DNA from: Chloroflexia bacterium
Lineage (GTDB): Bacteria; Chloroflexota; Chloroflexia; QHBQ01; JAICKM01
NCBI GenBank assembly: GCA_035693165.1
Contig: DASSGZ010000649.1
Location: forward strand, 1-61,573
Reading direction: 5' to 3'
DNA: 61,573 bases
A program made the position numbers and the translations under genes. The notes below the pieces were generated by a model. The model ran no database searches. It saw only the letters and a list, made by a program, of their open reading frames with translations, and was not told where the DNA came from. This document shows positions 4,881 to 48,430 of this stretch, one piece after another; position 1 is the stretch's first letter; each line of letters starts with the position of its first letter.

Positions 4881-4893
4881 TGGTCAAAGCGGG

Positions 4894-33167: not shown

Positions 33168-33223
33168 CCGCCGCCCCTCCCGGCCTGCGCCTGCATACAT
33201 TTCATCACAAGCGGTGTAGCTTT

Positions 33224-33296
33224 ACCGCGAAGACGCGAAGTGCGCGAAGATTAGCACCAGTATAAACAATCTTTGCGTGCTGCGCGCCTTCGCGGT
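33224..33296. repeat. F1 element, GCGAAG type, imperfect 29-bp arms
   Basis: ACCGCGAAGACGCGAAGTGCGCGAAGATT ... AATCTTTGCGTGCTGCGCGCCTTCGCGGT. Confidence 0.8.
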
Positions 33297-33327
33297 GCAT
33301 TTGTGCACGGATGTCAAATGCCGATTC

Positions 33328-33357
33328 TTGACACTGTGCGCGGATAGGTGCTATAAT
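33328..33357 (+). promoter_or_regulatory. Consensus promoter TTGACA, 18 nt, TATAAT heading the sbcD / giant-protein cluster
   Basis: Read directly: TTGACActgtgcgcggataggtgcTATAAT. Confidence 0.65.
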
Positions 33358-33454
33358 CGCCTGTATACTCAACATAATGTGAGCCGGCGTGCCGGGGGCT
33401 GTCCTGTGTGCCTGGCGCCGCCGGAAACCCGCCCACCCACGGAAAGCACACCAG

Positions 33455-34690
33455 ATGATCCGTATCCTGCACCTGGCCGACATACACCTGGGTATGGAAA
33501 ATTACGGCCGGGTGGACCCGGCGACCGGCCTGTCCAGCCGCCTGGGCGATTTCCTCGCCAGCCTCGACACCGCGCTCGACTACGCCATCGACCATGCGTT
33601 TGACCTGGTGTTGTTGGCCGGGGATGTCTACAAGAACCGCGACCCCAGCCCCACCATCCAGCGCGAGTTTGCCCGCCGCATCCACCGCCTGTCCGCCGCG
33701 GGCATCCCCACTTTTCTGCTGGTCGGCAACCACGACCTGCCGAATACCTGGGCCCGCGCGCACACGGTCGAGATCTTCGACACGCTGGCCGTGCCCAATG
33801 TCTGGGTGGCGCGCAAGCCCGGCGTCGTCCAGATCCCCACGGCGCACGGGCCTGTGCAAATCGCCGCCCTGCCCTGGGTCACACACCACACTCTGCTGAC
33901 CAAGGACGAGTATCGCAGCTATTCGCACCGCGAACTCAACGGCATCCTGGCCGATAAGGTCGAAGCCTTGATCGACGGTATGATCGACGAGCTCGACCGC
34001 GCCCTCCCCGCCATCTTCACCGCGCACGCGGCCATCGACATCGCCAAGACCTCGTCGGAGCACAGCATGATGCTCGGCGACGACCTGGTGCTGCCGCTGA
34101 GCCTGGTGGCCCGCCCGGAGTTCGACTATGTGGCGCTGGGCCACGTGCATAAGTACCAGGTGTTGCACAAGCACCCGCTGGTGGTCTATCCCGGCAGCCT
34201 CGAACGCATTGACTTCGGCGAAGAGCGCGACCCCAAGGGCTTTGTGACGGTCACGCTCGACGAGACCTGCCCGCGCGGCGAGCGAGCCATGGCGCACGAG
34301 TTTCACGAGGCGGGCGCGCGGCGCTTCCTGACGGTGGAAGTGCATACCAACGGCGGCAATCCCAATGAAACCGTCCTTCGCAAGCTCGCCGCGCGGGCCG
34401 ACGATATTCGCGGGTCCATCGTCCGGGTTGTGATCAAAACCACGGCGGAGCAAGAATCGCTGCTGCGCGACGACGAGATCCGTAAGGCGCTGAGCGAGGC
34501 GGCATATATTGCCTCGGTCAGCCGCGAAGTGGACGCGCCGCAACGCACCCGGCTGGGCGGGCACGCCATCGAGCAACTGACCACCCGCCAGATCCTGGAA
34601 CTATACTGCGCCAGCGCCAAGATCGCGCCGGACCGCACGGCGACCCTGCTGAAATATGCGGACGAGTTGATAGGCGACCCGGCCGAGTGA
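33455..34690 (+). CDS. sbcD: Mre11/SbcD-family metallophosphoesterase nuclease
   Basis: MIRILHLADIHLG, LLAGDVY, LVGNHD, GHVH motifs. Internal ATG chosen. Confidence 0.85.
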   Translation: MIRILHLADIHLGMENYGRVDPATGLSSRLGDFLASLDTALDYAIDHAFDLVLLAGDVYKNRDPSPTIQREFARRIHRLSAAGIPTFLLVGNHDLPNTWARAHTVEIFDTLAVPNVWVARKPGVVQIPTAHGPVQIAALPWVTHHTLLTKDEYRSYSHRELNGILADKVEALIDGMIDELDRALPAIFTAHAAIDIAKTSSEHSMMLGDDLVLPLSLVARPEFDYVALGHVHKYQVLHKHPLVVYPGSLERIDFGEERDPKGFVTVTLDETCPRGERAMAHEFHEAGARRFLTVEVHTNGGNPNETVLRKLAARADDIRGSIVRVVIKTTAEQESLLRDDEIRKALSEAAYIASVSREVDAPQRTRLGGHAIEQLTTRQILELYCASAKIAPDRTATLLKYADELIGDPAE

Positions 34691-34723
34691 CGTGCGGCGC
34701 GTGGCGCTTCCTGAAACGGTACC

Positions 34724-37700
34724 TTGCCCATGGCTGATCGCTCGCTGAGCAATATAACCCTGCAGGACGCCTACAGCCGCGCGCAAGCCGCGCTCGAAGG
34801 CGGCGACAGCCCCCGCGCTGTCGCCATCACCCAGCACATCCTGCGCTATTATCCCCAGTATATCGACGCCTACCGCCTGCTGGGCGAGGCCTACCTGGAG
34901 TTGGGCCGGCCCGAGGAAGCGATGCGCTTCTTCACCCACGTGCTCAACGCCGACCCCCAGAACGTGCTGGCCCACATTGGCCGCGCCATTATCGCCGAAG
35001 ACCACCACCAGGTCGACATCGCCATCGACGAGTACGAGCGCGCCTTTGAGATCGATCCGAGCATCACCGAACTGCGCGGCGAGTTGCTGCGGCTCTACGC
35101 CATCCGCTACGGCAGCGCGGGCGCCGCGATCCGCACCACGCCGAGCGGTCTGGCCTATGTCCACCTGCGCGCCGGGCTGCGCGACGCGGCCATCAGCGAA
35201 CTCGGCTATGTGGCCCAGGTGCGCCCCGACCGCTGGGATGTCGAGGTGGCGCTGGCCGAGGCCCTCTGGCGCAACGAGCAGTTGGACGAGTGCGCCGCCG
35301 TCGCCGGGGATATCCTGGCCGGCCACCCGGCCTGCGTGAAGTGCAAGTGGCTGCTGGGCTACCTTCATTGGAGCAGCGGGCGCACCGAGAGCGGGCGGCA
35401 ATACCTGATGGACGCCGTGGCCCTCGACCCGGCCTACCGCATCGCCAATGCCGTCTGGGACGCCACGCCCTGGCCCGTGGACCGGCGCATCACCCGCGCG
35501 CAAACCGCCATGGTGCCCGGCTGGACGCAAGAGGAACTGGTCGGCAGCGACCTGGACATCAGCGTGGCGCTGCCGCCGGAACCGCCTGCCTCTAAAGAGG
35601 CACCCGCCGCGCCTGGCGGATCGCGCCGCGTGACTCAGAAATTCGACACCCGCCCGCCCCTGCCCGGTGAGTCGCGCCGCGTGACTCAGAAATTCGACAC
35701 CCGCCCGCCCCTGCCCGGCCAGACCTCCGAACTGACCCCCGCGGAAGAAGTCCCGGCCCCGCCCGCGGCGGCCGCGGAAGCGCTGGAGTGGGACAGTATC
35801 CTGAGCAGCCCGGATGCGCCCGCCCCCTTCGACCTCGACTGGTTGGACGACTGGGCCGCCGCCGCCGAAACCACCCCCGCTGCGCCCGCGCAATCGGCCC
35901 ACGCCACGCTGGAGTTCGAGGCAATCGCGCCTCCCGCCGCCGAGGATAGCGCCCCCCCGCCGGACACGCTGGTCGTCACGCCCGCGCCGGAAGCCGCATC
36001 GCTCGCCATGCCGGTGGAGGCATCAGAGCCGGAAGCCGCTGCGGGCGCCGTGGCAGCAGAAGTAACGGCGCCGGAAGCCCCCCTCCCCCTGGCCGGAGCG
36101 GCAGCAGCAACGGCGCCGGAAGCCCCCCTGGCCGAAGTGGCAGCAGCAGCGGAGCCGGAAGCCGCGCTGGTCGAAACTGATGGTATCACCGAGCAAGAAG
36201 CCACCGAGATCGCAGTGTTCCCGGTCTCGCCTGCCGAGGCCGCGCCTGCCGGGCCGCCCGCGGATGAGGCCGGGTTGCCCGCCGCCGAGCCGGACGGCTT
36301 CCTGGCGTGGCTCAGCGAACCTGCGACAGGCGCGCCGCAAGCGGAGGAGATCGAGGCAGGACCGGCCGAGGATATAGCGGAGGCCAGTGACGCCGCCGAG
36401 TCGCCCGCGGCCCAGGCCGGCATGTTCCCCGCCTGGCTGGACGAACAGCCCGCAGATTCCGGCGCCGCCCCCCCCGCCGAGGGCGAAGACGCGGCGGTAC
36501 CGATCACGGAGTCGTCCTCCGCGCAGCCCAGCATGTTCCCTGAGTGGATGGGTGCGCCGGCCAATGGCGTGCAAGAAGCCGTCCCGGCGGAGAGCGCCGC
36601 CGGCGAGGCAACTGCTAATGTTGTAGAAGCAGCCGCCCCGGCAGAGAGCGCCGCCGATGTGGCCGCAGCGGAGCCGGCGGATCAAGCTGAAGCCGGCGTC
36701 CCGGCGCCCGCCCGGCATCAGGTCGTCCACCTCTTCCCGGCCTGGCTGGAAGAAGCTACGAGCGACGACGAAGACGAGTCGGACCTGGAGATGCTGCCCG
36801 CCTGGATGCGCGAGGCCGGCCCGCTCGAAGCCGGCACCCCGGCTGCAGCAGCCGAGACGACAGCAGATGCGCAAGTCGCCTCGGCGGACGCCGCCATCCC
36901 GACCGAGCACGCCGAGGAGGCCGTGCCCGCCGCGCCTGTCCCGGCGGACGCCCTCAGCTTGATCACCGCCGAGCAGGAAGCGCCGGCGATACTCACCGGC
37001 GAGGAACCCGTCGCCAGGGTAGCGGGGGATCAGGAAGTACCACCAGCGATCTCCCCGGAGGAACCGACTCCGTTTGCAGCGGCGGCGCAAGAGGACGGCG
37101 CGGATATGATGGTCCCGGCGCCCACCGAAGCGGCATCCGCAGATGAAAGTCCGCTGATTGGCGAACCCGCGCTGCCGATTATGGAGCCGGCCCTGGCGGA
37201 AGCCGAAGCAGGCGCGCCCGCCCAGGTCGAGATCATAGTGGCCGAGTCCGGGGCCGAAAGCGAACCGGCCGCCGTGGCCGCGAGTGACCCGGACGCCGCT
37301 ATCCTGCCCGACGATCTGTTCCCGGCCTGGCTGGAGGAGATCGAGCGCAGCGCAGCGACCGGCGCAACCGAAGCCCAAGCGGCCGGGGCCACGGCGCCGG
37401 AAACGACTGCTGAGGAAGCAGCGCCGGCAATGGCCACCCCGCCGGAAGCGAGTACCGAGGAAGCAGCGCCGGTAATGGCCGCCGCAGTGCCGGAAGCCCT
37501 GCCGGCTGAGGAGCCGCAGGCCGGCGTGCCGGAAGCGATGTCTGCGGACGACGTGCAGGCCAGTGCGGCCCCGCCCGAAGCGATGCCTGCTGAGGACGCG
37601 CAGGCGAATGAGGCCGCGCCCGAAGCGCTGCCTGCCGCGGACATACAGGCGAGTACTGTCGCACCGGAAAACGTACCGGCTCAGGGCGTGCCGGCCAATG

Positions 37701-40700: not shown

Positions 40701-43700
40701 GCGGCATCCAGCCGTTTGATTTCGGCGGCACCGCCGCGCAGGCAGGCGAAAGCGCCGCGCCGCAGGCAGCCGGGGCGCCCGGCGAGTTTGATTTCAGTAT
40801 GGTCGAGTCGTTCGACTTCCGGGGTCCCGGCGCCACGCCGTCCGCGGGCGGCGCCAATGACTTTGATTTCGGGGGCGTCCAGCCGTTTGACTTCGGCGGG
40901 GCACCGGCCGGCGGCGAGATGGCGGGCGATGTGAGCGATGTCGATGACTTTATCGACTTCCTGAGCGTGGGCGCGGGCAACGCCGCGCCTGCCGTGCCCG
41001 CGCCCGACGAGTTCGCCTTCGACCTGGGCGGCGACGTGCAGCCCTTCTCGCTGGAAGGCATGGGGTTGGGCAGCACGCCCGGCGCCCCCAGCCCGGCCTT
41101 CGGCGCGCCCCCCGCGCCCGGCCCGGCCTTCAGCGCCCCGCCCGCGCCCATGGCCGGCGCGCCGGCAGGCGGCGTGCGGCTGCCCGCGGGCCCCGGTCCC
41201 GAGGAGATGGGCAGCCTGGCCGGCGACGAATTCAGCTTCGAGCCGTTCATGTTTGATGCCGCGGGCGGCGCCGCCCCGCCCGCTCCGTCCGCCCCGCCGG
41301 CCTTCAACCAGGCGCCCGCCATGCCCACGTCGCCCTTCAATCCGGGGTCGGCATTTGCGAACCGCGCGCCGGCGGATGTGCCGCCCGGCCTGGAGGATCT
41401 GCCCGATCTCCAGCCCTTCTCGTTCGAGGGCCTGGATGCGACCGGCGATCAGGGCTATGGGTTTGACTCCGGCGCCGGGGGCCAATCCTTTGGCCGGCGC
41501 GCGACCGATCGCGGGGAAACCAGCCGTAGCGGCATGGCCTTCAACCTGGAAGAAGAAACCAACGCCCCCGCCGGGGATGTGCATAGCTTCTCGTGGCAGC
41601 GCCGCAGCACGCCGGCCCGCGAACCGGCCCATGCCCCGGAGGCGCCCGAGACCGCTGGATCTATCTTCGCCAAGGCGCGCAAGCGCAAGGAGGAGCTGGA
41701 ACAAACCCTGCGCCAGGAGGCGGAAGCGCGCGGCGAGGTCTACACGCCCCCGCCGGTGGCCGCGAACCTGCACCCGGAGGAAGCCGCAGAATTGAGTTAC
41801 TGGCCCAATCTGGACGAAGAAGAGGCTGTGGCGAGCGCGCCGGCCCAACCGGCGGTCCAACCCTTTGACTTTACCGCCGTGGCCGGTCCCACGCCCGCCG
41901 ATGTCGCCCAGGATATGGCGAGCCTGCAACTGGCGCCGTTCGAGTTCGAGGAAGAAGGCCCGCCCGCCGCCGGATCGCCGACTATCCAGTTGCCGGAGGA
42001 AAGCGCGCAAGCGAGCGCCCAGGCCCCCGCGGCGCCCCAGTTCGCCGCCGACCAGACAATCCAGGTGCCGTTGCAGGATCAGGCCGGCCTGGAGGCCGGC
42101 GCCCCGGCCATGCCCGAGCCGTTTGCCTTTGAGGCCGCGGAGATCCCTGCCGAAATCCAGCCCTTCTCGTTCGATCTGGGCGCAGAGGCGCAGGCCGCGC
42201 CCGCCGAGGCGCAAGCCGCCTCGCCGCCTGCCGAACCCTTTGCCTTTGAAGCCCCGGAACCCGGCGCCGCCCCGGTTGAACCGTTCGCCTTCGAGGTCCC
42301 GGCCGGCGGTCCCACCGCCGTCCAACCCTTCACTTTCGAAGCCCAGGAAGGCCCGCCGCCGGCTGTCGAACCGTTCACGTTTGAGGTCCAGGAAAGCGCC
42401 GCCGCCACCGCCGAACCTTTTGCCTTTGAGCCGGAGGCCGGCGAGGCTGCGCCTGTCCAGCCCTTCAGTTTCGAGGCCCAGGAAACCGAAGCGGCCGCCG
42501 TCCAGCCCTTCAGTTTCGAGACCCAGGAAAGCGAAGCGGCCGCCATCGAGCCCTTCAGTTTCGAGACCCAGGAAACCGAAGCGGTGGCTGTCCAGCCCTT
42601 CACCTTCGAGGCCCCCGAGGCCGGCGCGCCGGTGGAGCCGTTCGTCTTTGACACCGCCGCTCCGGCGGAATCTGCCGCGCAAGCCGCGCCCGTTACTGCC
42701 GAGGCCCCCGAGGCTGCCGCGCCCGCAGTGGAACCCTTCGCCTTCGATATGACCGAAGCGCCGGAGGCTCCCGCCGTCGAGCCGTTCACCTTCGACATGG
42801 CGGAGAGCGTTGCGCCGCCCACCTTCGAGCCCGCGGAACCGAGTGCCGCGGCGCCGCAGGCGGAAGCCGCCCCGCAGGAAGCCGCAGCGGGCGAATTGCT
42901 CTGGAGTATCCCCGTCGCCGAAGCGGGTAACGCACCCACGGCGGAAGCCACCGCCACCGGCGGCTTCGGCGAGGAAGTGGCGCCCGGCGAATTCGACTTC
43001 AGCGGCCTCCAGCCGTTTGACCTTGGGGCGCTGGACCTCACGCCCGAAGAACGCGCCTACCTCACCGGCGAGGCAGCCGCCGCCGAGGCGGCGCCCGCTG
43101 AGGTAAGTGCGCAGGCGCCCGCCGAACCCGCCGCCGTCGCGGCGCCGGAGGAGCCGGCGGGGATTCCCGAACTCCAGTTGCAGCAGACCGAACCCGCCGG
43201 CCCCATCGAGCCGTTCAGCTTCGATATGACTGAGTTTGAGCCGCCCGCCGCCGAACCGCCCGCGATGGACCTGGGCGGGGTGCCGCCCGCCGAGGCGCCC
43301 GGCTACGAGGCCGGCGCGCCCACGGCCACGGTCGAACCGGTCGAGTTCGGCATGAGCGAGGCGAGCGAAGCCGCCACGGTCGAGCCGTTCGAGTTCGACA
43401 CGGAAGCCGCCGCGCCCGCGCCCGCCGAGCCGTTCCAGTTCGAGCCGTTCCAGTTCGAGCCGGAAGCGCCGCCCGCGCCGGAGCCGGTCGAGATCGAGGC
43501 AGAGGCCACCGAAGACGAAGCGGCGCTACCGTTCAGCTTCGAGGCCTCCGCCGAGCCGGCCGTCACGCACTACGAAACCACGACGCGCACCGGTACCGGG
43601 CCGCTGGCCGCCGAAACCTGGGCGGAAATTCCGGCCGCCGGCGCCTTCGACTTCAGCGGGGTCGAGATGGACCAGGCACCCACCGAACCCGCCGTGGCCG

Positions 43701-44224
43701 AGGCGCCCGAACCCGCCGTCGCCCAGGCGCCTGAACCCGTCGTCGCGCAGGCGCCTGAAGCGCCCGCCGCCGAGGCGCCCGTGGAAACCCCCGCGCCGGT
43801 GCCCCCGGCCCCTGTGGCCGAGGCGCCTGCCCCTAAAGAGGCATCGAAAGAGGCACCGGTGGCCGCCCAACCGGCCCCGGTCCCGGTCGCGCCGCCCGCG
43901 CCGGCGGGGGGCTCCATCGACGACCTGGCCCGCCATCTGCGCGAGAACCCGGACGACACCGCCGGGCGCCTGGCCCTGGCGATCGGCTACGAGCAACGCG
44001 ACGACATCTCGCGCGCCGCCGAGCAATATCGCCTGCTGATCAAGGGCCGCAATGTGCCGGAAAATCTGCTCGACATCGTGACGGGCAACCTGCGCGATCT
44101 GGTCGAGGCCCAGCCCGATAATCCATCCTTACATCGCCTGCTGGGCGACGCCTACATGAAACAGGGCCAGTACCAGATGGCAATCGCCCAGTACAACTGG
44201 TTGCTGACCAAGGGCACACGCTAG
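34724..44224 (+). CDS. Giant (3,166 aa) acidic low-complexity protein with TPR-like N-terminal (~270 aa) and C-terminal (~100 aa) caps; no family recognised
   Basis: Single uninterrupted frame with G/C-rich third positions. TPR-like YIDAYRLLGEAYLELGRPEEAMRFF and LLGDAYMKQGQYQMAIAQY. Start is TTG 34724 or ATG 34730. Confidence 0.85.
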   Translation: MPMADRSLSNITLQDAYSRAQAALEGGDSPRAVAITQHILRYYPQYIDAYRLLGEAYLELGRPEEAMRFFTHVLNADPQNVLAHIGRAIIAEDHHQVDIAIDEYERAFEIDPSITELRGELLRLYAIRYGSAGAAIRTTPSGLAYVHLRAGLRDAAISELGYVAQVRPDRWDVEVALAEALWRNEQLDECAAVAGDILAGHPACVKCKWLLGYLHWSSGRTESGRQYLMDAVALDPAYRIANAVWDATPWPVDRRITRAQTAMVPGWTQEELVGSDLDISVALPPEPPASKEAPAAPGGSRRVTQKFDTRPPLPGESRRVTQKFDTRPPLPGQTSELTPAEEVPAPPAAAAEALEWDSILSSPDAPAPFDLDWLDDWAAAAETTPAAPAQSAHATLEFEAIAPPAAEDSAPPPDTLVVTPAPEAASLAMPVEASEPEAAAGAVAAEVTAPEAPLPLAGAAAATAPEAPLAEVAAAAEPEAALVETDGITEQEATEIAVFPVSPAEAAPAGPPADEAGLPAAEPDGFLAWLSEPATGAPQAEEIEAGPAEDIAEASDAAESPAAQAGMFPAWLDEQPADSGAAPPAEGEDAAVPITESSSAQPSMFPEWMGAPANGVQEAVPAESAAGEATANVVEAAAPAESAADVAAAEPADQAEAGVPAPARHQVVHLFPAWLEEATSDDEDESDLEMLPAWMREAGPLEAGTPAAAAETTADAQVASADAAIPTEHAEEAVPAAPVPADALSLITAEQEAPAILTGEEPVARVAGDQEVPPAISPEEPTPFAAAAQEDGADMMVPAPTEAASADESPLIGEPALPIMEPALAEAEAGAPAQVEIIVAESGAESEPAAVAASDPDAAILPDDLFPAWLEEIERSAATGATEAQAAGATAPETTAEEAAPAMATPPEASTEEAAPVMAAAVPEALPAEEPQAGVPEAMSADDVQASAAPPEAMPAEDAQANEAAPEALPAADIQASTVAPENVPAQGVPANDVAPEDVPAQGVPANDVAPEALPAADADFIVEPATPPSATAATSEPGPAAMAGADRVTESAAQLSPSEDETFPAWMSETGAASLPVVVAPDVPEAESAESADREPAPAAPPAPVASAEATGIAASAPGDMPQPEIDASAAAETASAQEAAPETPATEASVLPDWLTEAVNVQTPEATGAPTPLALDEETLFAADHTLGGQAGEIPIADDLFPAWLEAGPSGALDGGELPPPLAAQVPPETPVREDNSLPPMVAAEDAAFPAGQDAAASAQPAGFAEAAGTPDTTSTAQAAAPGLAAGSAEHIPAPPDTSKEADAFPAWMAGSWFEVAVAPAPGEPSAEPLVIVPESAIESSTEPAPPVEAGANLPATEAAQAATPEAAGEASVAEAAAAENELIGAPGFVVAGDSAPVVSYSAEATPEAADPLHEEILDWPAAAEGSPDAAEADHPTEPDPTPEETAAPPVLAAAAEPHDMHPSESAPDAAAAADTESAGLVSPHAAEAEGPALSVLAGPEPGVGAPSTPGSAPADAAAAPPVDAAAGEAIAETAAPAPDASAGTAESRPAPALLPALDHFAKVGYNHADDSQVPDDTAAPGPPLTPAGTTGADAGPGERPAAVEAGHLPDGAVEHGAPAAGQAAFATSEEDNMAPSYKEDDDQERQFDFDWDRDALPDYLKPFLMNETPGQPGQPPAPAAPAGPTAGAAPPAGRPMPPAPGAGGPGSNDFNLDLDNIQPFDFGAPPPAPSPGPATPIRPLSATPPPVAPPPQQSPGGFNESDFGGVQPFNFGAPAGPGGGDEFDFGSEALPSWLGSGGNAGPAFSFDTSAGPQATEPAPGPDLSSPGIPDWLRTPETETPQAARPGPAAPPPPAAPGGDFDFGSEALPSWLSASAAPAPPAANDFGDVQPFDFGAPAGQGQPQPFDFGAPAGGQGQPQPFDFGAMAGGGPQPFNFGAPATPERGPAPAPSQEFDLGGVQPFDFGAPATPAPPAAQSTPGGPAPGGDFDFGGIQPFDFGGTAAQAGESAAPQAAGAPGEFDFSMVESFDFRGPGATPSAGGANDFDFGGVQPFDFGGAPAGGEMAGDVSDVDDFIDFLSVGAGNAAPAVPAPDEFAFDLGGDVQPFSLEGMGLGSTPGAPSPAFGAPPAPGPAFSAPPAPMAGAPAGGVRLPAGPGPEEMGSLAGDEFSFEPFMFDAAGGAAPPAPSAPPAFNQAPAMPTSPFNPGSAFANRAPADVPPGLEDLPDLQPFSFEGLDATGDQGYGFDSGAGGQSFGRRATDRGETSRSGMAFNLEEETNAPAGDVHSFSWQRRSTPAREPAHAPEAPETAGSIFAKARKRKEELEQTLRQEAEARGEVYTPPPVAANLHPEEAAELSYWPNLDEEEAVASAPAQPAVQPFDFTAVAGPTPADVAQDMASLQLAPFEFEEEGPPAAGSPTIQLPEESAQASAQAPAAPQFAADQTIQVPLQDQAGLEAGAPAMPEPFAFEAAEIPAEIQPFSFDLGAEAQAAPAEAQAASPPAEPFAFEAPEPGAAPVEPFAFEVPAGGPTAVQPFTFEAQEGPPPAVEPFTFEVQESAAATAEPFAFEPEAGEAAPVQPFSFEAQETEAAAVQPFSFETQESEAAAIEPFSFETQETEAVAVQPFTFEAPEAGAPVEPFVFDTAAPAESAAQAAPVTAEAPEAAAPAVEPFAFDMTEAPEAPAVEPFTFDMAESVAPPTFEPAEPSAAAPQAEAAPQEAAAGELLWSIPVAEAGNAPTAEATATGGFGEEVAPGEFDFSGLQPFDLGALDLTPEERAYLTGEAAAAEAAPAEVSAQAPAEPAAVAAPEEPAGIPELQLQQTEPAGPIEPFSFDMTEFEPPAAEPPAMDLGGVPPAEAPGYEAGAPTATVEPVEFGMSEASEAATVEPFEFDTEAAAPAPAEPFQFEPFQFEPEAPPAPEPVEIEAEATEDEAALPFSFEASAEPAVTHYETTTRTGTGPLAAETWAEIPAAGAFDFSGVEMDQAPTEPAVAEAPEPAVAQAPEPVVAQAPEAPAAEAPVETPAPVPPAPVAEAPAPKEASKEAPVAAQPAPVPVAPPAPAGGSIDDLARHLRENPDDTAGRLALAIGYEQRDDISRAAEQYRLLIKGRNVPENLLDIVTGNLRDLVEAQPDNPSLHRLLGDAYMKQGQYQMAIAQYNWLLTKGTR
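35621..35722 (+). repeat. Near-perfect 51-bp tandem duplication inside the giant gene (SRRVTQKFDTRPPLPG x2)
   Basis: The copies start at 35621 and 35672. The 48 nt encoding SRRVTQKFDTRPPLPG are identical and only the trailing codon differs (GAG vs CAG). Confidence 0.95.
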
Positions 44225-44233
44225 GGGACTGTA

Positions 44234-44725
44234 ATGCCTGATCGAACTACCGGCCCCGAGGGCGGCATCGCCGACCTGAGCATGGCCGACATCACCGCCG
44301 TCGACCGGCCCACGCTGGGGCCGGCGGCCGCGGTGGCCGCGTTCCGCGCGATCCGGCTCGGCGCTCTGGGCACCGTGGCCGGGTCGGGCCTGAACGGTGC
44401 CGTCTACCTGGCCGGGCGCCGCTGGGCGCAGAGCCTGACCTTCACCACCCCGGCCGATCTGTTTCGCACGCTGGCCGAACTCCGCCTGGGGGTGCCGCGC
44501 GTCGTGAACCAGAGCGCTGACAGCATCGAAATCGAACTGGCGGAAACTCTGAGCGCCGCGGGCTTGCCCGCCGTGGGCGAGCCGTTGTGCCACTTCGAGG
44601 CCGGGTTTCTGGCGGGCGCGCTGGCTACGCTGACCGGCAAGCGCGTCCAGGTGCGCGAAACGACCTGTTGGGGCACCGGCGGGCACCGGTGCGTCTTTGT
44701 CGCAAAACTCGAACCCCGCACGTGA
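44234..44725 (+). CDS. V4R (4-vinyl-reductase-type) domain protein
   Basis: CHFEAGFLAGALATLTGKRVQVRETTCWGTGGHRCVF Cys pattern. Begins 9 nt after the giant gene, behind AGGGGA. Confidence 0.75.
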   Translation: MPDRTTGPEGGIADLSMADITAVDRPTLGPAAAVAAFRAIRLGALGTVAGSGLNGAVYLAGRRWAQSLTFTTPADLFRTLAELRLGVPRVVNQSADSIEIELAETLSAAGLPAVGEPLCHFEAGFLAGALATLTGKRVQVRETTCWGTGGHRCVFVAKLEPRT

Positions 44726-44772
44726 CCGGGCGGGGTTCCGCTTAATCTGGTAGCCTACGGGAGGGCAACTGA

Positions 44773-45120
44773 GTGAGGAAAATCGTCGAAGATCTGATTC
44801 GCATCGACGGCGTAATCGGCGGCCTGCTGGTGGGCAAAGACGGCCTGGTGGTGTCGAGCACCCTGCTGGAAGATGAAGATGCCGAGGTCCTGGGCGCGAT
44901 GTCCGCCGCCATGTTCGGGACCATCGCCAAGGCCGCCGAGCGGATCGGCGTGGGGGCTCTGCGCGACACGATCATCGAAGCCGCCGAGGGATCGATCCAG
45001 TTAATCGAGGCCGAGGATCTCATCCTTGTCGTGATCACCGAGCGGGGCGTGAACCTGGGTATGATTCGGATCGAGATGCGCAAAGCCGCCAAGCGCGTCC
45101 GTGAAGAAATCCCGATGTAG
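44773..45120 (+). CDS. Roadblock/LC7 (MglB-like) domain protein
   Basis: IDGVIGGLLVGKDGLVVSS...EDLILVVITERGVNLGMIR. GTG start behind GGGAGGG. Confidence 0.82.
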   Translation: MRKIVEDLIRIDGVIGGLLVGKDGLVVSSTLLEDEDAEVLGAMSAAMFGTIAKAAERIGVGALRDTIIEAAEGSIQLIEAEDLILVVITERGVNLGMIRIEMRKAAKRVREEIPM

Positions 45121-45170
45121 CCGGGGCACCGCGCACCATACCTGACCCTACTTGAAGGAGTTTTATCGCT

Positions 45171-45620
45171 TTGGAACGTACGCTTATTATCCTGAAACCC
45201 GACGCCGTGCAGCGGGGCCTGGCCGGCGAGATCCTGAACCGGCTGGAGCGCCGGGGCTTGAAGATCGCCGGCATGAAGATGATGCAGGTCAGCCCCGAAC
45301 TGGCGAAAGAACACTATGCCGAGCATGTCGGCAAGCCCTTCTATAACGGCCTGATCGAGTATATCACCTCCTCGCCGGTGGTCGTGCTGGTGCTGGAGGG
45401 CAAGAACGCCGTCGCCATTTCGCGCAGCACCATCGGCGCCACCAATCCGGCCAACGCCGCCCCCGGCACCATCCGCGCCGACCTGGCCGTCGAGACGGGC
45501 CGCAACCTCATCCACGGGTCTGCCGACCCGGAAGCCGCCGCCCGCGAAGTGAGCCTCTGGTTCAAGGACGACGAACTGACCTCGTGGCCGCGCGATACCG
45601 ACCGCTGGATCCAGGAGTAA
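45171..45620 (+). CDS. ndk: Nucleoside diphosphate kinase
   Basis: ERTLIILKPDAVQRGL...NLIHGSAD. TTG start behind GAAGGAG. Confidence 0.93.
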   Translation: MERTLIILKPDAVQRGLAGEILNRLERRGLKIAGMKMMQVSPELAKEHYAEHVGKPFYNGLIEYITSSPVVVLVLEGKNAVAISRSTIGATNPANAAPGTIRADLAVETGRNLIHGSADPEAAAREVSLWFKDDELTSWPRDTDRWIQE

Positions 45621-45630
45621 GCCCGCCCCG

Positions 45631-47832
45631 GTGACCACGAACTCTGTGCCGGCCCCGCCCGCGGGAGAGACCCTCGTGGCGCGGGGCCGGCGCGCCGCAC
45701 TTGCTCGCCTGTCCCCCCGCACGCATCCGGACCTGTTCATCGCCGCCGGCATCTTTGCCGCGGCGCTGCTGGCGCGCGCCTGGGGCGTCCAGTGGTCCCT
45801 GCCCTACGTGGGCCATGTGGACGAGCCGAAGATCGTCGACTCGGGCGTGCAGATCGTCAAGACGGGCGATCTGAATCCCCACCTGTTCATCTGGCCGTCA
45901 TTGGTCATCTACATCCAGGCGCTGATCTACAAGCTCAATCTACTGTGGGGCACCTGGCGCGGCTACTACGTGGGGCCGCAGTCGCTGCCCGACCAGAACC
46001 ACATCTTCGCCCTGGCGCCCGGCCTCTACCTCTGGGGGCGCACCTTCAGCGCGCTGGTGGGCGCCGCCGCCGTGACCGGTTGCTTCGCGCTGGGCCGGGC
46101 CATGTTCGGGCGCGCGGCAGGCATCCTGGCGGCCTTCCTGCTGCTGACCTCGCCGCTGCACGTCGAATACTCGCACTACCTTGTCACCGACGTGACGGTA
46201 GGCGCCTGCGGGTTGCTGGCGCTGGCCCTCGCCTGGCGGCTGGCGACGCACCCCGGTCGCCGCGTCGCCCTGCTGGCCGGGGCCGCCGTGGGCCTCTGCA
46301 CGGCGGCCAAATACAACGGCCTCTATATCGCCCTGCCGGTGGGCATCGCCTGGCTGCTGGCCTGGCGGCGGCTCCATCGCGGCGATCCCCGCCCGGCCAC
46401 GAGCGGGCGCTGGCTGCTCGTCGCGCTGGGCATGGTAGTCGCCGCCGCCGCCGTCTTCCTGATCACCAACCCCTACGTGATCCTCGACTGGACCCACTGG
46501 TCGCGCGGCTTCGTCTTCCAGGTCAACGCCTACCTGCCCGCGAACACCGTGGGCCAGATCGCCACGGCCTTCGGCAAACAGGTGGACGCCCTCTGGACCA
46601 CCGATACGGCCCTGCTGGCGGCGGGGCTGGCCGGCAGCCTGGTGCTGCTGGTCGAGGCGATCCGCCAGCGGCGCAGCAATGCGAATCTGGTGCGCGCCGC
46701 CTGGCTGCTGCTGCCCTTCCCGCTCGCCTACACGCTCGCCATGAGCCGCTTCACCGAGATCTTCGAGCGCAACCTGATCATCACCCTGCCCTTTGTCTGC
46801 CTCGCCTTCGGCTACGGCGCCGCCCGCGTGGCGGAGGTCGTCGCGCCGCGCCTGCCGTCGCGGGCGCGGGTCGCATGGGCGGTGCCCGCCGTGGCCGCCA
46901 TCCTGGGACTGCTGGTGGTCGCGGAACCCGCCCGCCGGGTGTTCAATTTTGACGAGTATATGGGCAAGACCGAGAGCCGCAACGCCGCCTGGGCCTGGCT
47001 GCAGGGCGAGCTGCGCGCCGGGCACCGCGCCGCGGTGGAGTTGCACACGCTGCAAACCTGTGCGCCGCCGCCCTGGAATTGCCCCGCGCCCGATGTCCTG
47101 GCGCCCAATACCCCGCTCACCGAGCACCCGCCGATCTGGTACGCCAACCACGGCTACGATTATGTGCTGCTCGTCGGGCAGGAGATCGCTTACGTGGGCA
47201 ACCCCGACAAGGAGGGTCGCCGCCCGCCCGCCCAACTGGCGCCCTACCTGGCCTTGCCCGAAGTGCGCCGCTTTGCCGGGGACGCCGAGAACGGCAAAGG
47301 CCCAACCGTCCGCGTGCTACGCGTGCTCGATAGCCTGCAGACGATCCTGGGCGTGACCCCCAGCGGGGCGCACTTCGGCCCGGTCGCCGAACTGTGGGGC
47401 TACAACCTCGCGCCGCTGCCCACGGCGGGCGTCGCCTACGACCCATCCGCCGCGCCGCCGCCGGCCAAGGCCTACCGGCCCGGCGCCGCCGCCGGGGTCA
47501 CGCTCTACTGGCGCGCGCTGCCCGGCGCGGCCACCACGCCGGGCAACTGGACCGTGGCGCTGCACCTGAACGACCGCACCGGCAAAACGGTTGCCCAGGT
47601 CGATGTGCAGCCCATCAGCAGCGGCCATATCCGCCCCGTCAGCGACTGGTACGCCAACGAGTTCCTGGTCGGGGCCTATAACATCCCCCTGCCCCCGACG
47701 CTGGCCCCCGGCGCCTACAACCTGACCCTGGCGCTCTACAACGCCCCCACCGGCCCCGGTCTCCCGGTGGAGCAGACCGGCCAGGCCCCGGCCCCCGTCC
47801 TCGACCTCGGCACGATCCAGGTCACACCGTAG
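45631..47832 (+). CDS. GT-C fold membrane glycosyltransferase, family 39 (PMT/ArnT-like), with a ~250-aa C-terminal soluble domain
   Basis: About 11 TM spans. Acidic VDEPK in the first loop after TM1. GTG start 10 nt after ndk. Confidence 0.65.
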   Translation: MTTNSVPAPPAGETLVARGRRAALARLSPRTHPDLFIAAGIFAAALLARAWGVQWSLPYVGHVDEPKIVDSGVQIVKTGDLNPHLFIWPSLVIYIQALIYKLNLLWGTWRGYYVGPQSLPDQNHIFALAPGLYLWGRTFSALVGAAAVTGCFALGRAMFGRAAGILAAFLLLTSPLHVEYSHYLVTDVTVGACGLLALALAWRLATHPGRRVALLAGAAVGLCTAAKYNGLYIALPVGIAWLLAWRRLHRGDPRPATSGRWLLVALGMVVAAAAVFLITNPYVILDWTHWSRGFVFQVNAYLPANTVGQIATAFGKQVDALWTTDTALLAAGLAGSLVLLVEAIRQRRSNANLVRAAWLLLPFPLAYTLAMSRFTEIFERNLIITLPFVCLAFGYGAARVAEVVAPRLPSRARVAWAVPAVAAILGLLVVAEPARRVFNFDEYMGKTESRNAAWAWLQGELRAGHRAAVELHTLQTCAPPPWNCPAPDVLAPNTPLTEHPPIWYANHGYDYVLLVGQEIAYVGNPDKEGRRPPAQLAPYLALPEVRRFAGDAENGKGPTVRVLRVLDSLQTILGVTPSGAHFGPVAELWGYNLAPLPTAGVAYDPSAAPPPAKAYRPGAAAGVTLYWRALPGAATTPGNWTVALHLNDRTGKTVAQVDVQPISSGHIRPVSDWYANEFLVGAYNIPLPPTLAPGAYNLTLALYNAPTGPGLPVEQTGQAPAPVLDLGTIQVTP

Positions 47833-47899
47833 CCGGGCGCCTGGATCTGTAGGGTTGCGCGTATTATCGTGGCGTTACCCCGGAGATCGGGGTAAGAGG

Positions 47900-48004
47900 G
47901 GCAGGCGCGATCAATCGCGCCGCTACGCACGAGGCGTATCACTCTGCGCCACCGGGCCGTTATCTAGGCATATTTCGTAGCGGCGCGATTGATCGCGCCT
48001 GCCG
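47900..48004. repeat. Perfect 28-bp inverted repeat (GGCAGGCGCGATCAATCGCGCCGCTACG / complement) around a 49-nt spacer; family F5
   Basis: Arms at 47900-47927 and 47977-48004. Each arm contains its own GCGCGA-TCAA-TCGCGC hairpin. Confidence 0.9.
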
Positions 48005-48045
48005 CCTCACCGGGATGCTGGGATTGCATCCCACAGGAGGGTCGG

Positions 48046-48255
48046 ATGAACCAGCCTCCGCAACTCACCGCGATTATTGAGCGCCAGGACAACGCCTACA
48101 TTGCGCTATGCCCGGAACTCGATATCGCCAGCCAGGGTGACACGGTTGAGGAAGCGCGCCGTAATCTCGCCGAAGCGCTGGAGTTGTTCTTTGCGGTTGC
48201 CGATGCTGGCGAAGTGGCGCTCCGGCTGGGAGCGCATCCCCTTGAGGGTGAATGA
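48046..48255 (+). CDS. hicB: HicB-family (UPF0150) antitoxin-like protein, 69 aa
   Basis: LTAIIERQDNAYIALCPELDIASQGDTVEEARRNLAEALELFF. ATG behind AGGAGGG. Confidence 0.75.
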   Translation: MNQPPQLTAIIERQDNAYIALCPELDIASQGDTVEEARRNLAEALELFFAVADAGEVALRLGAHPLEGE

Positions 48256-48276
48256 GTATCGCTTTCTGGTCTTCCT

Positions 48277-48352: not shown

Positions 48353-48430
48353 AGGGCCACTCCCAGCCGTTCTGAGCCTGCGCCGGTCAGGCCGCAGTAG
48401 CCCGTCGATTCCAACACGACAATAGAGAGG

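What the first reader, a model, noticed from the sequence alone, without database searches (positions are those of the whole stretch)
33328..47832. Compact six-gene same-strand cluster behind a perfect TTGACA-18-TATAAT promoter
The gene order is SbcD-like nuclease, giant scaffold, V4R, Roadblock, ndk, GT39 glycosyltransferase. The gaps are 33, 9, 47, 50 and 10 nt. I see no hairpin terminator inside the cluster. The only strong promoter-like element is at 33328-33357, right after an F1 repeat hairpin. This combination of functions (DNA-end nuclease, disordered scaffold, GTPase-type regulators, NTP supply, membrane glycosyltransferase) matches no operon I know. It may be one unit or an accretion of two.
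Basis: partly seen in the sequence, partly recalled or inferred. Interest (0 to 1): 0.7.

Follow-up and report, generated by a model that had tools for sequence, protein, structure and literature searches.

The report
Giant TPR scaffold–Roadblock–ndk gene cluster
The six-gene cluster is real and probably one transcript, but its conserved part is a huge, mostly disordered acidic scaffold protein paired with a small Roadblock regulator and usually the NDP kinase gene, an unstudied module of filamentous Chloroflexota; the nuclease and glycosyltransferase at the ends are later additions.

Summary
Six same-strand genes (sbcD, a 3164-aa TPR-capped disordered protein, V4R, Roadblock/LC7, ndk, a PMT-type GT-C glycosyltransferase) follow a perfect TTGACA-18-TATAAT promoter. 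Gaps are 33/39, 9, 47, 50 and 10 nt, and large hairpins bracket the cluster.

Comparative synteny shows a layered accretion, not one ancient unit. The anchor is a Chloroflexota protein family with a ~250-aa N-terminal TPR domain, an acidic disordered region carrying aromatic motif arrays, and a C-terminal TPR (555 representatives at E<=1e-30). No study of it turned up.
- **Roadblock** sits directly downstream of the long forms in every lineage where that side could be read, including Herpetosiphon aurantiacus. It is always 115 aa and 66-96% identical.
- **ndk** follows in 10 of 11 lineages and is directly adjacent in the short-form loci.
- **V4R** occurs only in the window's clade.
- **sbcD** is upstream only in the window's species and one other lineage.
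- **The glycosyltransferase** occurs only in the closer sub-clade.

No small GTPase and no sbcC lie in the 61.5-kb window. My best reading is a cytoplasmic scaffold–Roadblock(–V4R) hub co-expressed with NDK. That mechanism is inferred, not shown. I rate it moderately interesting and a new variant of orphan MglB-like systems.

The parts
33224..33296 (+). Long imperfect hairpin (REP-like element with CGCGAAG sub-repeats) between the upstream MpaB/Lcp-like gene and the promoter. It probably insulates or terminates upstream transcription.
   Evidence: fold of 33168-33327, -65 kcal/mol, z = -4.5.: this region has diverged in L019 while the promoter is conserved.
33328..33357 (+). Sigma-70-type promoter TTGACA-18-TATAAT with TG before the -10.
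   Evidence: 12/12. (3 perfect sites in the window, 0 expected). (identical in L019).
33358..33454 (+). Spacer from the -10 to the sbcD ATG. It contains the inferred transcription start, about 7 nt after the -10, and a ~90-nt 5' leader.
   Evidence: about 4 mismatches in 150 nt against L019.: not significantly structured (z = -1.4).
33455..34690 (+). sbcD/Mre11-type nuclease, 411 aa, with intact phosphoesterase motifs (DIH, GD, GNHD, GHVH). No sbcC lies next to it.
   Evidence: TIGR00619 156 bits; T. maritima Mre11/SbcD 8e-21; no SbcC-type P-loop anywhere in the window.
34730..44224 (+). Giant scaffold gene, 3164 aa from ATG 34730. The protein is 22.7% Ala, 14.6% Pro and 10.6% Glu, with net charge -432.
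   Evidence: the family is defined.
34730..35500 (+). N-terminal TPR domain of the giant (aa 1-257, about 6.5 repeats). This is the family-defining module.
   Evidence: profile hits at 1e-107 to 1e-40, then a gap to generic TPR at 1e-19.: 555 representatives at E<=1e-30.: pLDDT 92.: generic peptide-binding TPR superhelix.
36425..40345 (+). Part of the disordered region carrying 12 [FLMIV]-P-x-W-[LM] motifs. The family logo is [DE]x[ED]G-L-P-[DSA]-W-L.
39629..39724 (+). Conserved island MAPSYKEDDDQERQFDFDWDRDALPDYLKPFL inside the disordered region.
   Evidence: 71% identical in L009, 45% in L014, 56% in L032.: present in P0147, P0150 and P0151.
39887..43660 (+). Array of 35 [PSA]-F-x-F motifs (QPFDFG and EPFxFE types). 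Part of it is built from 45-nt tandem repeats, for example 42320-42614.
   Evidence: (D9, D12).
41588..41704 (+). Family-wide 'SWQ ... SIFAKARKRKEELEQ' basic island, the only basic patch in the acidic region.
   Evidence: present in 10 of the 14 family members inspected.
43907..44221 (+). C-terminal TPR-like domain of the giant.
   Evidence: 76-78% identity in the close clade, 57% in L004/L009, 51% in L032, 36% in Herpetosiphon, 31% in L012.
44234..44725 (+). Stand-alone V4R protein, 163 aa, with a C119/E142/C145/C153 zinc-site pattern.
   Evidence: PF02830 75.7 bits; Cys invariant in 24 sequences; the four residues align with the C/E/C/C columns of PoxR; model matches MJ1460, YslB, MopR/PoxR and Bet3/TRAPPC3.
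44711..44738 (+). 9-bp hairpin spanning the V4R stop codon, with no U-tract. It could be a processing, stability or attenuation element.
   Evidence: present in the window, L001, L005, L006, L008 and L010, with one compensatory pair (C-G to A-T) in L005.
44773..45120 (+). Roadblock/LC7 protein, 115 aa. It is the most conserved gene of the cluster.
   Evidence: PF03259; Asgard Roadblock 4e-9, CvnB5 4e-6, MglB 8e-4; gap-free alignment of 8 lineages, 55 of 115 columns invariant, 66-96% identity.
45171..45620 (+). ndk, nucleoside-diphosphate kinase, 149 aa. It matches the equivalog model of the canonical housekeeping NDK.
   Evidence: NF001908 202 bits, cut-off 155.
45631..47832 (+). GT-C glycosyltransferase (PMT/PMT_2 type), 733 aa, with a ~300-aa non-matching C-terminal part.
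   Evidence: 58-66% identity in complete orthologues of the clade, absent in L004/L009.: the Herpetosiphon PMT_2 neighbour is not an orthologue.
47896..48007 (+). Large inverted repeat (39-nt arms) 64 nt after the last stop codon. It is the likely 3' boundary of the unit.
   Evidence: I4; fold of 47833-48045, -130.5 kcal/mol, z = -8.3.

Best explanation
In this genome the six genes are most likely one sigma-70-driven transcript running from the promoter at 33328 to the hairpin near 47900. In evolutionary terms the unit is a mosaic.

Its functional core is a Chloroflexota-specific scaffold protein. It has a peptide-binding TPR domain at each end, and between them about 2.8 kb-worth of strongly acidic disordered chain studded with repeated aromatic short motifs (LPxWL and PFxF) plus a few conserved islands. 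A 115-aa Roadblock/LC7 protein is encoded directly after it.

I propose the following mechanism; every step is inferred.
1. Roadblock dimers dock on the scaffold, most plausibly on its PFx[FL] motif array or its TPR ends.
2. In this clade a zinc-site V4R (Bet3/TRAPPC3-fold) ligand-binding protein joins them.
3. The result is a multivalent cytoplasmic hub that positions or regulates an NTPase encoded elsewhere, most likely an MglA-type small GTPase.
4. NDK is co-expressed and supplies NTP.

sbcD at the front and the GT-C glycosyltransferase at the back are lineage-specific passengers that share the promoter here.

What is shown: gene content, the promoter, the layered synteny, the existence of the family, and the domain folds. 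What is inferred: co-transcription, physical Roadblock-scaffold binding, the GTPase client, and NDK as a local NTP source.
For: Unit in this genome:
- Perfect promoter, 0 expected by chance.
- Promoter and leader conserved in L019.
- Short gaps, with Shine-Dalgarno-like sequences before four of the five downstream genes.
- No canonical terminator in any gap.
- Bracketing hairpins.
- Similar short gaps in relatives.

Core versus passengers:
- giant -> V4R -> Roadblock -> ndk occurs in six lineages of Chloroflexia genomes assembled from metagenomes.
- Herpetosiphon aurantiacus CP000875.1 has receiver - giant (1757 aa) - Roadblock (32-nt gap) - ndk.
- L032 has giant (2171 aa) - Roadblock (14-nt gap) and nothing else of the cluster.
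- Short-form family members sit directly upstream of ndk in three of three loci with otherwise different flanks, once with a 4-nt overlap.
- Roadblock is far more conserved than its neighbours: 66-96% identity against 40-62% for the N-TPR.
- PFx[FL] arrays are present in all four long forms that have a Roadblock neighbour and absent from eight short forms, none seen with a Roadblock neighbour.

Family-level function:
- Roadblock/MglB proteins are NTPase regulators, and 328 'orphan' MglB homologues are known, none characterised (PMC4316618).
- The V4R fold equals the TRAPPC3/Bet3 fold and carries a Zn site and a ligand cavity (PMC10933270).
Against: - There are no transcript data, so weak internal promoters inside the 9.5-kb gene cannot be excluded. 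In L004/L009 the Roadblock-ndk spacer is about 205 nt and contains a TGGTACAAT extended -10-like site, so ndk can be separately transcribed in some relatives.
- No small GTPase lies in the 61.5-kb window or next to the cluster in Herpetosiphon or L032. Only Obg lies four genes away in Herpetosiphon.
- The Roadblock protein lacks the MglB N- and C-terminal extensions.
- ndk matches the equivalog model of the housekeeping enzyme, so its position may have no mechanistic meaning, and it is missing from L032.
- The co-occurrence of PFx[FL] arrays with Roadblock is confounded by phylogeny (4 long forms against 8 short forms).
- Relatives of the Herpetosiphon/Oscillochloris type carry a sigma-70 region 1.1 domain. 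That points towards RNA polymerase rather than a GTPase.
Confidence: 0.45

Rival explanations
1. Co-transcribed but functionally unrelated genes. The cluster is a string of housekeeping and miscellaneous genes (sbcD, ndk, a glycosyltransferase, a TPR protein, two small proteins) that share a strong promoter. The conserved order reflects vertical inheritance and selection for co-expression only.
For: - ndk matches the equivalog model of the canonical housekeeping enzyme.
- sbcD, V4R and the glycosyltransferase come and go between lineages.
- ndk is absent from L032.
- In the close clade the conserved order simply continues into RNase Y, SpoVS and a PHP-domain gene.
Against: - giant -> Roadblock and TPR -> ndk both persist across orders or classes while every flanking gene changes.
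- The gaps are tight: 14-32 nt, and a 4-nt overlap in L012.
- Roadblock is extremely conserved, with a fixed length of 115 aa.
Confidence: 0.25
2. A hub for nucleic-acid machinery. The hyper-acidic scaffold acts as a nucleic-acid mimic or a platform for RNA polymerase, repair or RNA-decay enzymes. The nuclease SbcD upstream and NDK (NTP regeneration) would then be genuine partners.
For: - A Sigma70_r1_1 domain (PF03979, 37 and 26.6 bits, cut-off 22.5) is embedded in the disordered region of the two family members scanned (a Herpetosiphonaceae and a Ca. Oscillochloris protein); a matching segment is found by profile in three more, including H. aurantiacus.
- The scaffold has net charge -432.
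- sbcD -> giant adjacency is kept in L014 at about 46% identity.
- RNase Y follows the cluster in the close clade.
Against: - The region 1.1 domain is absent from the window clade.
- sbcD is absent upstream in Herpetosiphon, L032 and the short-form loci.
- Roadblock and V4R have no known role with nucleic acids.
Confidence: 0.12
3. A cell-envelope, gliding or glycosylation module. The scaffold and Roadblock would organise a membrane glycosyltransferase, with NDK supplying nucleotide-sugar precursors, for sheath, S-layer or slime production in a filamentous glider.
For: - The GT-C glycosyltransferase is on the same strand with a 10-nt gap and is conserved in five lineages of the clade.
- PMT_2-type genes also lie near the locus in Herpetosiphon and L017.
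- Many SLH-domain envelope proteins are encoded in the window.
Against: - The glycosyltransferase is absent in L004/L009 and L032.
- The Herpetosiphon PMT_2 is on the opposite strand and is not an orthologue: no tblastn hit to the window sequence at E<=0.01.
- The scaffold's N-terminus (MADRSLSNITLQDAY) shows no hydrophobic signal-peptide stretch on inspection; no predictor was run.
Confidence: 0.08
4. An anti-phage defence or mobile island built around an SbcD-like nuclease.
For: The cluster is bracketed by repeat hairpins. It contains a nuclease and a giant repetitive gene.
Against: - No PADLOC model matches any of the six proteins.
- Base composition is continuous with the flanks.
- The core is inherited vertically across Chloroflexota.
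Confidence: 0.02

Closest known systems
MglA/MglB polarity switch (Myxococcus, Thermus) and 'orphan' MglB homologues (Wuichet & Sogaard-Andersen 2014, PMC4316618)
   Same: A small Roadblock/LC7-fold protein (PF03259) with PDB sequence matches to MglB. Like the 328 orphan MglBs, it has no GTPase gene within four genes. It occurs in gliding filamentous bacteria.
   Different: It is 115 aa against about 160 aa for MglB, so it lacks MglB's terminal extensions. It is paired with a giant TPR/disordered protein and ndk rather than with MglA. No GTPase is linked to it in any locus examined.
Streptomyces conservon (CvnA-D)
   Same: It contains a Roadblock protein; CvnB5 (PDB 3leq) matches at 4e-6. It is a multi-gene unit that combines a Roadblock protein with signalling parts.
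   Different: There is no histidine-kinase-like CvnA, no DUF742 CvnC and no CvnD GTPase. A TPR scaffold, V4R and NDK are present instead.
Eukaryotic and Asgard Roadblock / TRAPPC3 (V4R-fold) GTPase-regulator platforms: Ragulator, TRAPP (PMC10933270)
   Same: A Roadblock-fold protein and a V4R/Bet3-fold protein with a Zn site are encoded side by side. The closest solved Roadblock is an Asgard protein, 7f8m. The V4R model matches Bet3/TRAPPC3 chains.
   Different: This is a bacterial system with stand-alone minimal domains. No GTPase, longin or other TRAPP/Ragulator subunits are present. The V4R is closer to MJ1460, YslB and PoxR than to TRAPPC3.
Disordered-chain-plus-Roadblock assemblies (dynein intermediate chain with LC7; LAMTOR1 around Roadblock dimers) and PEX5-type 'aromatic motifs + TPR' receptors. 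These are architectural analogies from my own knowledge.
   Same: A long disordered chain with repeated short aromatic motifs is combined with TPR peptide-binding modules and a Roadblock dimer partner. The N-TPR model retrieves PEX5 and OGT TPR domains.
   Different: There is no sequence homology beyond generic TPR. Binding between Roadblock and the scaffold has not been demonstrated here.
SbcCD / Mre11-Rad50
   Same: The first gene is a bona fide SbcD-subfamily phosphoesterase with intact motifs.
   Different: No sbcC or rad50 lies next to it or anywhere in the window. A TPR scaffold gene occupies the position where sbcC usually sits.

Membership tests
SbcCD nuclease (SbcD subunit) | Calcineurin-like phosphoesterase domain with motifs DxH, GD, GNHD, H, GHxH, and a score above the SbcD subfamily cut-off | tested here: met
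   (PF00149 61 bits; TIGR00619 156 bits, cut-off 77.65); motifs read in the translation
SbcCD nuclease (SbcD subunit) | Adjacent sbcC (Rad50-like ABC ATPase) partner gene | tested here: not met
   The next gene is the TPR giant. No SbcC-type Walker A occurs in any frame of the window. Neighbouring ORFs have other Pfam assignments.
MglB-type Roadblock GAP | Robl_LC7 domain | tested here: met
   (PF03259 56.2 bits, cut-off 23)
MglB-type Roadblock GAP | MglA-family small GTPase encoded within four genes (coupling criterion of PMC4316618) | tested here: not met
   Only SelB and an XPB helicase carry P-loops in the window. None lies next to the cluster in Herpetosiphon or L032.
MglB-type Roadblock GAP | MglB length of about 160 aa with N- and C-terminal extensions | tested here: not met
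   The protein is 115 aa in all 8 lineages. It aligns to residues 33-126 of a 160-aa MglB.
Streptomyces conservon | CvnA sensor kinase-like, CvnC (DUF742) and CvnD GTPase genes next to the Roadblock gene | tested here: not met
   none of these domains occurs in or around the cluster
V4R / Bet3 (TRAPPC3) superfamily | V4R domain and two-layer alpha/beta fold | tested here: met
   PF02830 75.7 bits; pLDDT 67; Foldseek hits to MJ1460, YslB, MopR/PoxR and Bet3, probability 1.0, TM 0.55-0.6
V4R / Bet3 (TRAPPC3) superfamily | Cys/Glu zinc site tying the beta-sheet to the last helix, as in PoxR/MopR | tested here: met
   C119, E142, C145 and C153 align with the C/E/C/C columns of PoxR. The three Cys are invariant and E142 nearly invariant in 24 homologues. 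That these PoxR residues are the Zn ligands is from my own knowledge, and metal binding itself was not tested.
V4R sensors of the PoxR/MopR/MsvR type | Fusion to an output domain (AAA+/sigma-54 activator or HTH) | tested here: not met
   It is a stand-alone 163-aa protein. NF053755 MsvR scores 46 bits against a cut-off of 220.
Nucleoside-diphosphate kinase | NDK domain above the equivalog cut-off | tested here: met
   (PF00334 192 bits; NF001908 202 bits, cut-off 155)
GT-C glycosyltransferases (PMT/GT39 or ArnT-like) | PMT or PMT_2 domain above the gathering score | tested here: met
   (PMT 38.2 bits against 22.7; PMT_2 35.1 bits against 26.1), over residues 133-272 only
GT-C glycosyltransferases (PMT/GT39 or ArnT-like) | Assignment to GT39 specifically (protein O-mannosyltransferase) | tested here: inconclusive
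   Both models hit the same ~140 residues with similar scores. TIGR03663 is far below its cut-off.
Chloroflexota N-TPR / disordered / C-TPR scaffold family (unnamed; annotated only as 'tetratricopeptide repeat protein') | ~250-aa N-terminal TPR domain matching the family profile, clearly separated from generic TPR proteins | tested here: met
   family 1e-107 to 1e-40, next hits 1e-19; 555 representatives at E<=1e-30, mostly matching residues 2-245
Chloroflexota N-TPR / disordered / C-TPR scaffold family (unnamed; annotated only as 'tetratricopeptide repeat protein') | Acidic disordered middle with aromatic motif arrays, the SWQ...FAKLRRRKEEL basic island, and a C-terminal TPR module | tested here: met
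Single operon | One promoter, no internal terminators, one transcript | not testable with these tools
   The sequence is compatible with this, but transcript data are needed.

The most novel reading that the evidence does not exclude
The giant TPR-capped disordered protein is a Chloroflexota-wide multivalent scaffold, possibly condensate-forming. Its LPxWL and PFxF motif arrays would recruit clients. Together with a dedicated Roadblock dimer, and in this clade a TRAPPC3-fold V4R sensor, it would form a bacterial counterpart of the eukaryotic Ragulator/TRAPP-type platforms. Such a platform would control an unlinked small GTPase for polarity, division or gliding of filaments, with NDK channelling GTP locally. 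The LPxWL motif resembles the FtsZ C-terminal peptide (D-I-P-x-F-L-R). That resemblance is recalled from memory and was not tested, but it would make a link to cell division possible.
Probability: 0.15. Interest if true: 0.85.

Novelty: new variant of a known kind. Interest (0 to 1): 0.55.

Why it matters
Roadblock/LC7 and V4R (Bet3/TRAPPC3-fold) proteins are the prokaryotic relatives of key eukaryotic GTPase-regulator platforms. Hundreds of 'orphan' bacterial Roadblock proteins have no known partner (PMC4316618).

This locus gives one such orphan a strongly conserved genomic partner. That partner is a large, previously unremarked family of giant, acidic, motif-rich TPR scaffold proteins found across Chloroflexota, including the culturable Herpetosiphon aurantiacus (ABX06854.1). 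If the two proteins form a complex, this would be a tractable bacterial model for how Roadblock dimers work on disordered multivalent scaffolds. It would also assign a first function to a family with at least 555 sequence clusters.

The work also shows that the striking 'nuclease + scaffold + regulators + NDK + glycosyltransferase' combination is mostly a lineage-specific accretion. It should not be read as one machine.

Tried and rejected
- **Defence system:** PADLOC gave no hit for any of the six proteins (the earlier one search failed on a frame error).
- **Known RNA elements:** Rfam found only spurious microRNA-model hits on the terminal hairpin. The 5' leader is not significantly structured.
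- **GTPase or SbcC in the window:** a P-loop scan of all six frames found only SelB and an XPB-type helicase.
- **Glycosyltransferase as part of the conserved core:** the Herpetosiphon PMT_2 neighbour is on the opposite strand and has no detectable similarity to the window sequence. The gene is absent in L004/L009 and L032.
- **Sigma-70 region 1.1 domain in the window's giant:** a profile built from five relatives finds nothing in the window clade.
- **V4R relative in Omnitrophota (L011):** it is a V4R-GGDEF fusion and is unrelated to this cluster.
- **Broad metagenome scan:** it failed with the divergent N-TPR alignment because no conserved peptide was available. The narrower alignment recovered only one true relative, L019.
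- **Function from the TPR fold:** the N-TPR fold search returned only generic TPR superhelices with TM about 0.4, so it gives no functional clue.
- **Literature:** searches for the module (TPR + ndk + Chloroflexi; Roadblock + Herpetosiphon; NDK + MglB; region 1.1 + TPR) found nothing relevant.
- **sbcD upstream of the L009 giant:** only 163 nt are available there, so this could not be decided.

Full report
**1. Observation**

The window (61,573 bp, 68% GC) carries six plus-strand ORFs at the stated coordinates.
- sbcD: 33455-34690. The mechanical ORF opens at GTG 33389, but ATG 33455 gives MIRILHLADIHLG and aligns from position 1 of the SbcD model.
- A giant ORF: 34724/34730-44224. ATG 34730 is the likely start, because the 96-97%-identical homologue P0029 begins MADRSLSNITLQ.
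- V4R 44234-44725, Roadblock 44773-45120, ndk 45171-45620, and a PMT-like gene 45631-47832.

The gaps are 33 (39 from the ATG), 9, 47, 50 and 10 nt. GGGGA, GGGAGGG, GAAGGAG and AGGAG Shine-Dalgarno-like sequences precede V4R, Roadblock, ndk and the glycosyltransferase.

Pfam and NCBIfam confirm every label:
- TIGR00619 sbcD at 156 bits (cut-off 77.65);
- TPR models only at residues ~1-125 and ~3120-3160 of the giant;
- V4R at 75.7 bits; Robl_LC7 at 56.2 bits; NDK equivalog NF001908 at 202 bits;
- PMT at 38.2 bits and PMT_2 at 35.1 bits.

The promoter TTGACA-18-TATAAT at 33328-33357 is a 12/12 match with a TG before the -10. The window holds three perfect TTGACA-N16-18-TATAAT sites where shuffles give none. 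One of the others lies directly upstream of the minus-strand S8 peptidase gene, so perfect consensus promoters look like a real feature of this organism.

In contig L019 (SbcD 92% identical, N-TPR 96%) the promoter and the ~90-nt leader are almost identical to the window. The hairpin region just upstream has diverged.

The upstream hairpin (33224-33296) and a 39-nt-arm inverted repeat after the last gene (47900-48003) bracket the cluster. The terminator scan finds no site in any intergenic gap; its six plus-strand hits over 32000-49500 all lie inside coding sequence and have weak T-runs. It recurs in five related loci, with one compensatory pair in L005.

**2. What the giant protein is**

The 3164-aa product is 22.7% Ala, 14.6% Pro and 10.6% Glu, with net charge -432. 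Its 2765-aa middle part holds only 49 Lys+Arg.

It begins with a ~257-aa TPR domain, which AlphaFold2 models at pLDDT 92 as about 6.5 repeats. Foldseek retrieves only generic peptide-binding TPR superhelices such as consensus TPR, OGT and PEX5. It ends with a ~105-aa TPR-like module.

Between the two lie:
- 12 [FLMIV]PxW[LM] motifs and 35 [PSA]FxF motifs (QPFDFG and EPFxFE types), partly generated by 45-nt tandem repeats;
- a conserved island, MAPSYKEDDDQERQFDFDWDRDALPDYLKPFL;
- a basic island, FSWQ...SIFAKARKRKEELEQ.

A profile of the N-TPR domain separates a clean family (E from 1e-107 to 1e-40) from generic TPR proteins (1e-19 and weaker). An exhaustive HMMER search finds 555 50%-identity representatives at E<=1e-30. 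Most carry the domain at residues ~2-245 and are 300-2800 aa long.

Named members are all Chloroflexota: Herpetosiphon aurantiacus ABX06854.1/A9AXD4, Ca. Oscillochloris fontis, a Chloroflexus sp., and Anaerolineae and Chloroflexia genomes assembled from metagenomes. All are annotated merely as 'tetratricopeptide repeat protein'.

The long members I inspected fall into sub-types.
- The window clade has LPxWL motifs, PFxF arrays and the DW..LPDYL island.
- A Herpetosiphon/Oscillochloris type has 8-19 copies of PFSLxDLGLSxEEIAxL. Pfam finds an embedded sigma-70 region 1.1 domain (PF03979) above its gathering score in the two members of this type that were scanned, and a profile finds the matching segment in three more.

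The region 1.1 domain is not detectable in the window clade. The basic island and the C-terminal TPR are shared across sub-types.

**3. Comparative synteny**

- *Close clade.* Contigs carrying V4R homologues (57-96% identical) show C-TPR end -> V4R -> Roadblock -> ndk in six distinct Chloroflexia lineages (L001-L010). The glycosyltransferase and then RNase Y follow in the closer lineages. In L004/L009 an opposite-strand PIN gene follows ndk instead.
- *Upstream side.* sbcD precedes the N-TPR in L019 (same species level) and in L014 (SbcD C-terminus 45% identical, N-TPR 47%).
- *Herpetosiphon aurantiacus* (complete genome, L031). The order is HNH - single-domain response regulator - giant (1757 aa) - Roadblock (115 aa, 66% identical, 32-nt gap) - ndk (60% identical). 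A PMT_2 gene follows on the opposite strand. It has no detectable similarity to the window sequence.
- *L032.* A 2171-aa family member (N-TPR 44% identical by tblastn) is followed after 14 nt by Roadblock (71% identical). None of the other cluster genes is present.
- *Short forms (302-513 aa).* These have no PFx[FL] arrays, and in the three loci whose downstream side could be read they have no Roadblock neighbour. There they sit immediately upstream of ndk in three of three loci whose other flanks all differ, once with a 4-nt overlap (L012, L017, L018).

So the layers are: TPR scaffold -> ndk across classes of the phylum; long scaffold -> Roadblock across Chloroflexia; V4R only in the window clade; sbcD and the glycosyltransferase peripheral.

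Roadblock is the most constrained component. It is exactly 115 aa in all eight lineages, with 55 invariant columns and 66-96% identity, where the N-TPR is only 40-62% identical.

**4. The small proteins**

*Roadblock.* It matches solved Roadblock proteins from Asgard archaea (7f8m, 4e-9), Streptomyces CvnB5 (4e-6) and MglB (8e-4). It covers only residues ~33-126 of the 160-aa MglB, so it lacks MglB's extensions. By the criterion of Wuichet and Sogaard-Andersen (an MglA gene within four genes) it is an 'orphan'. That paper counted 328 orphans, none characterised.

*V4R.* The family is narrow: 28 hits, 6 genomic loci. It has three invariant Cys and a near-invariant Glu that align with the C/E/C/C columns of PoxR. 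The AlphaFold model (pLDDT 67) retrieves MJ1460, YslB, MopR/PoxR and Bet3/TRAPPC3. This fits the published V4R-TRAPPC3 relationship and the ligand-cavity idea (PMC10933270; PMC2253512).

*Other points.* No small GTPase is encoded in the window; the only P-loops belong to SelB and an XPB-type helicase. There is no sbcC either.

**5. Mechanism**

*Shown:* a strong conserved promoter, tight spacing, and a conserved scaffold-Roadblock(-ndk) neighbourhood.

*Inferred:* the genes form one transcript here, and the Roadblock dimer is the physical partner of the scaffold. Three points support the second inference.
- Roadblock is extremely conserved, as expected for a protein with several constrained interaction surfaces.
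- Its position directly after the scaffold gene is invariant.
- PFx[FL] arrays occur in all four long forms that have a Roadblock neighbour (35, 18, 14 and 31 copies) and in none of eight short forms.

The third point is confounded by phylogeny. By analogy with dynein intermediate chain-LC7 and LAMTOR1-Roadblock assemblies (my own knowledge), Roadblock dimers could clamp helical or aromatic motifs of the disordered chain. V4R would add a small-molecule or redox input in this clade. NDK, kept next to the scaffold gene across the phylum, would supply NTP. The client NTPase is unknown.

*Against this reading:*
- The sigma-70 region 1.1 domain in relatives points to RNA polymerase rather than a GTPase.
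- ndk matches the equivalog model of the housekeeping enzyme.
- L032 lacks ndk.
- In L004/L009 a ~205-nt Roadblock-ndk spacer with an extended -10-like TGGTACAAT suggests separate ndk transcription there.

**6. Comparison and novelty**

The locus fails the membership tests for a coupled MglA/MglB system, a conservon and an SbcCD operon. It passes the domain-level tests for SbcD, Roadblock, V4R, NDK and GT-C. No PADLOC defence model matches, and no Rfam family is present. Literature searches found no description of the scaffold family or of the scaffold-Roadblock-ndk arrangement.

I therefore classify it as a new variant of the orphan-Roadblock kind of system. It rests on a large uncharacterised scaffold family, and this genome has added accessory genes to it.

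**7. Verdict**

Interest is moderate (0.55). The six-function combination is largely fortuitous. The conserved giant-scaffold/Roadblock pair is a genuine, testable lead, and culturable organisms are available to test it.

Noticed in passing
Relatives P0153 (aa 794-861) and P0155 (aa 1030-1096) by Pfam; P0162, P0169 and P0181 (Herpetosiphon aurantiacus ABX06854.1) by profile only: Herpetosiphon/Oscillochloris-type members of the scaffold family carry a sigma-70 region 1.1-like domain in the middle of the acidic disordered region. Pfam scored it above the gathering cut-off in the two members scanned (PF03979); a profile built from the segment finds it in the other three. It is flanked by 8-19 copies of a PFSLxDLGLSxEEIAxL motif. 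This suggests a link to RNA polymerase. The domain is absent from the window clade.
   Followed up: partly
window 48046-48255 (+): A small 69-aa ORF between repeat hairpins downstream of the cluster. It gives sub-threshold HicB/UPF0150-like antitoxin matches (22.7 bits against a cut-off of 27.3). No toxin partner was identified.
   Followed up: partly
window 48509-51037 (-), 51060-51087 (-); also ~1186-2100, ~4893-5900, ~8361-9500: An S8 subtilase + SLH gene, driven by another perfect TTGACA-16-TATAAT promoter, is inserted between the glycosyltransferase and RNase Y; related contigs lack it. About 0.7 kb at its 3' (low-coordinate) end, encoding the C-terminal part of the protein, has three further copies (roughly 70-88% identical) spaced about 3.5-3.7 kb apart at the start of the window.
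   Followed up: partly
window 147-295, 31643-31673, 33224-33296, 47900-48003, 48270-48350: REP-like long hairpins built from short internal repeats (GCAGAG and CGCGAAG types) sit in several intergenic regions and bracket the cluster. The 47.9-kb one triggers spurious Rfam microRNA hits.
   Followed up: partly
window 4656-4685 (-): The third perfect consensus promoter in the window (TTGACA-18-TATAAT). Its target gene was not examined.
   Followed up: no
window 44711-44738; L001, L005, L006, L008, L010 equivalents: A conserved hairpin spans the V4R stop codon, with one compensatory base-pair change in L005. It could be an RNA processing or stability element inside the operon.
   Followed up: partly
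L004 and L009, Roadblock-ndk spacer (~205 nt; L009 7181-7384): In the more distant relatives the spacer has expanded, is highly structured (about -88 kcal/mol), and contains an extended -10-like TGGTACAAT. This suggests ndk has its own promoter there.
   Followed up: no
L031 7398-7790 and L015 969-1337; L017 6830-7978: In Herpetosiphonaceae a single-domain response-regulator receiver, preceded by an HNH gene, lies directly upstream of the scaffold gene. In L017 a receiver-histidine kinase does. This may indicate a phosphorelay input. There is no homologue in the window.
   Followed up: partly
window 24095-26170 (+), 20497-22389 (-), 22393-23697 (-): The upstream neighbourhood includes an XPB/ERCC3-type helicase, SelB (so the organism probably uses selenocysteine) and a Yip1-domain membrane protein. 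None is linked to the cluster in relatives.
   Followed up: no
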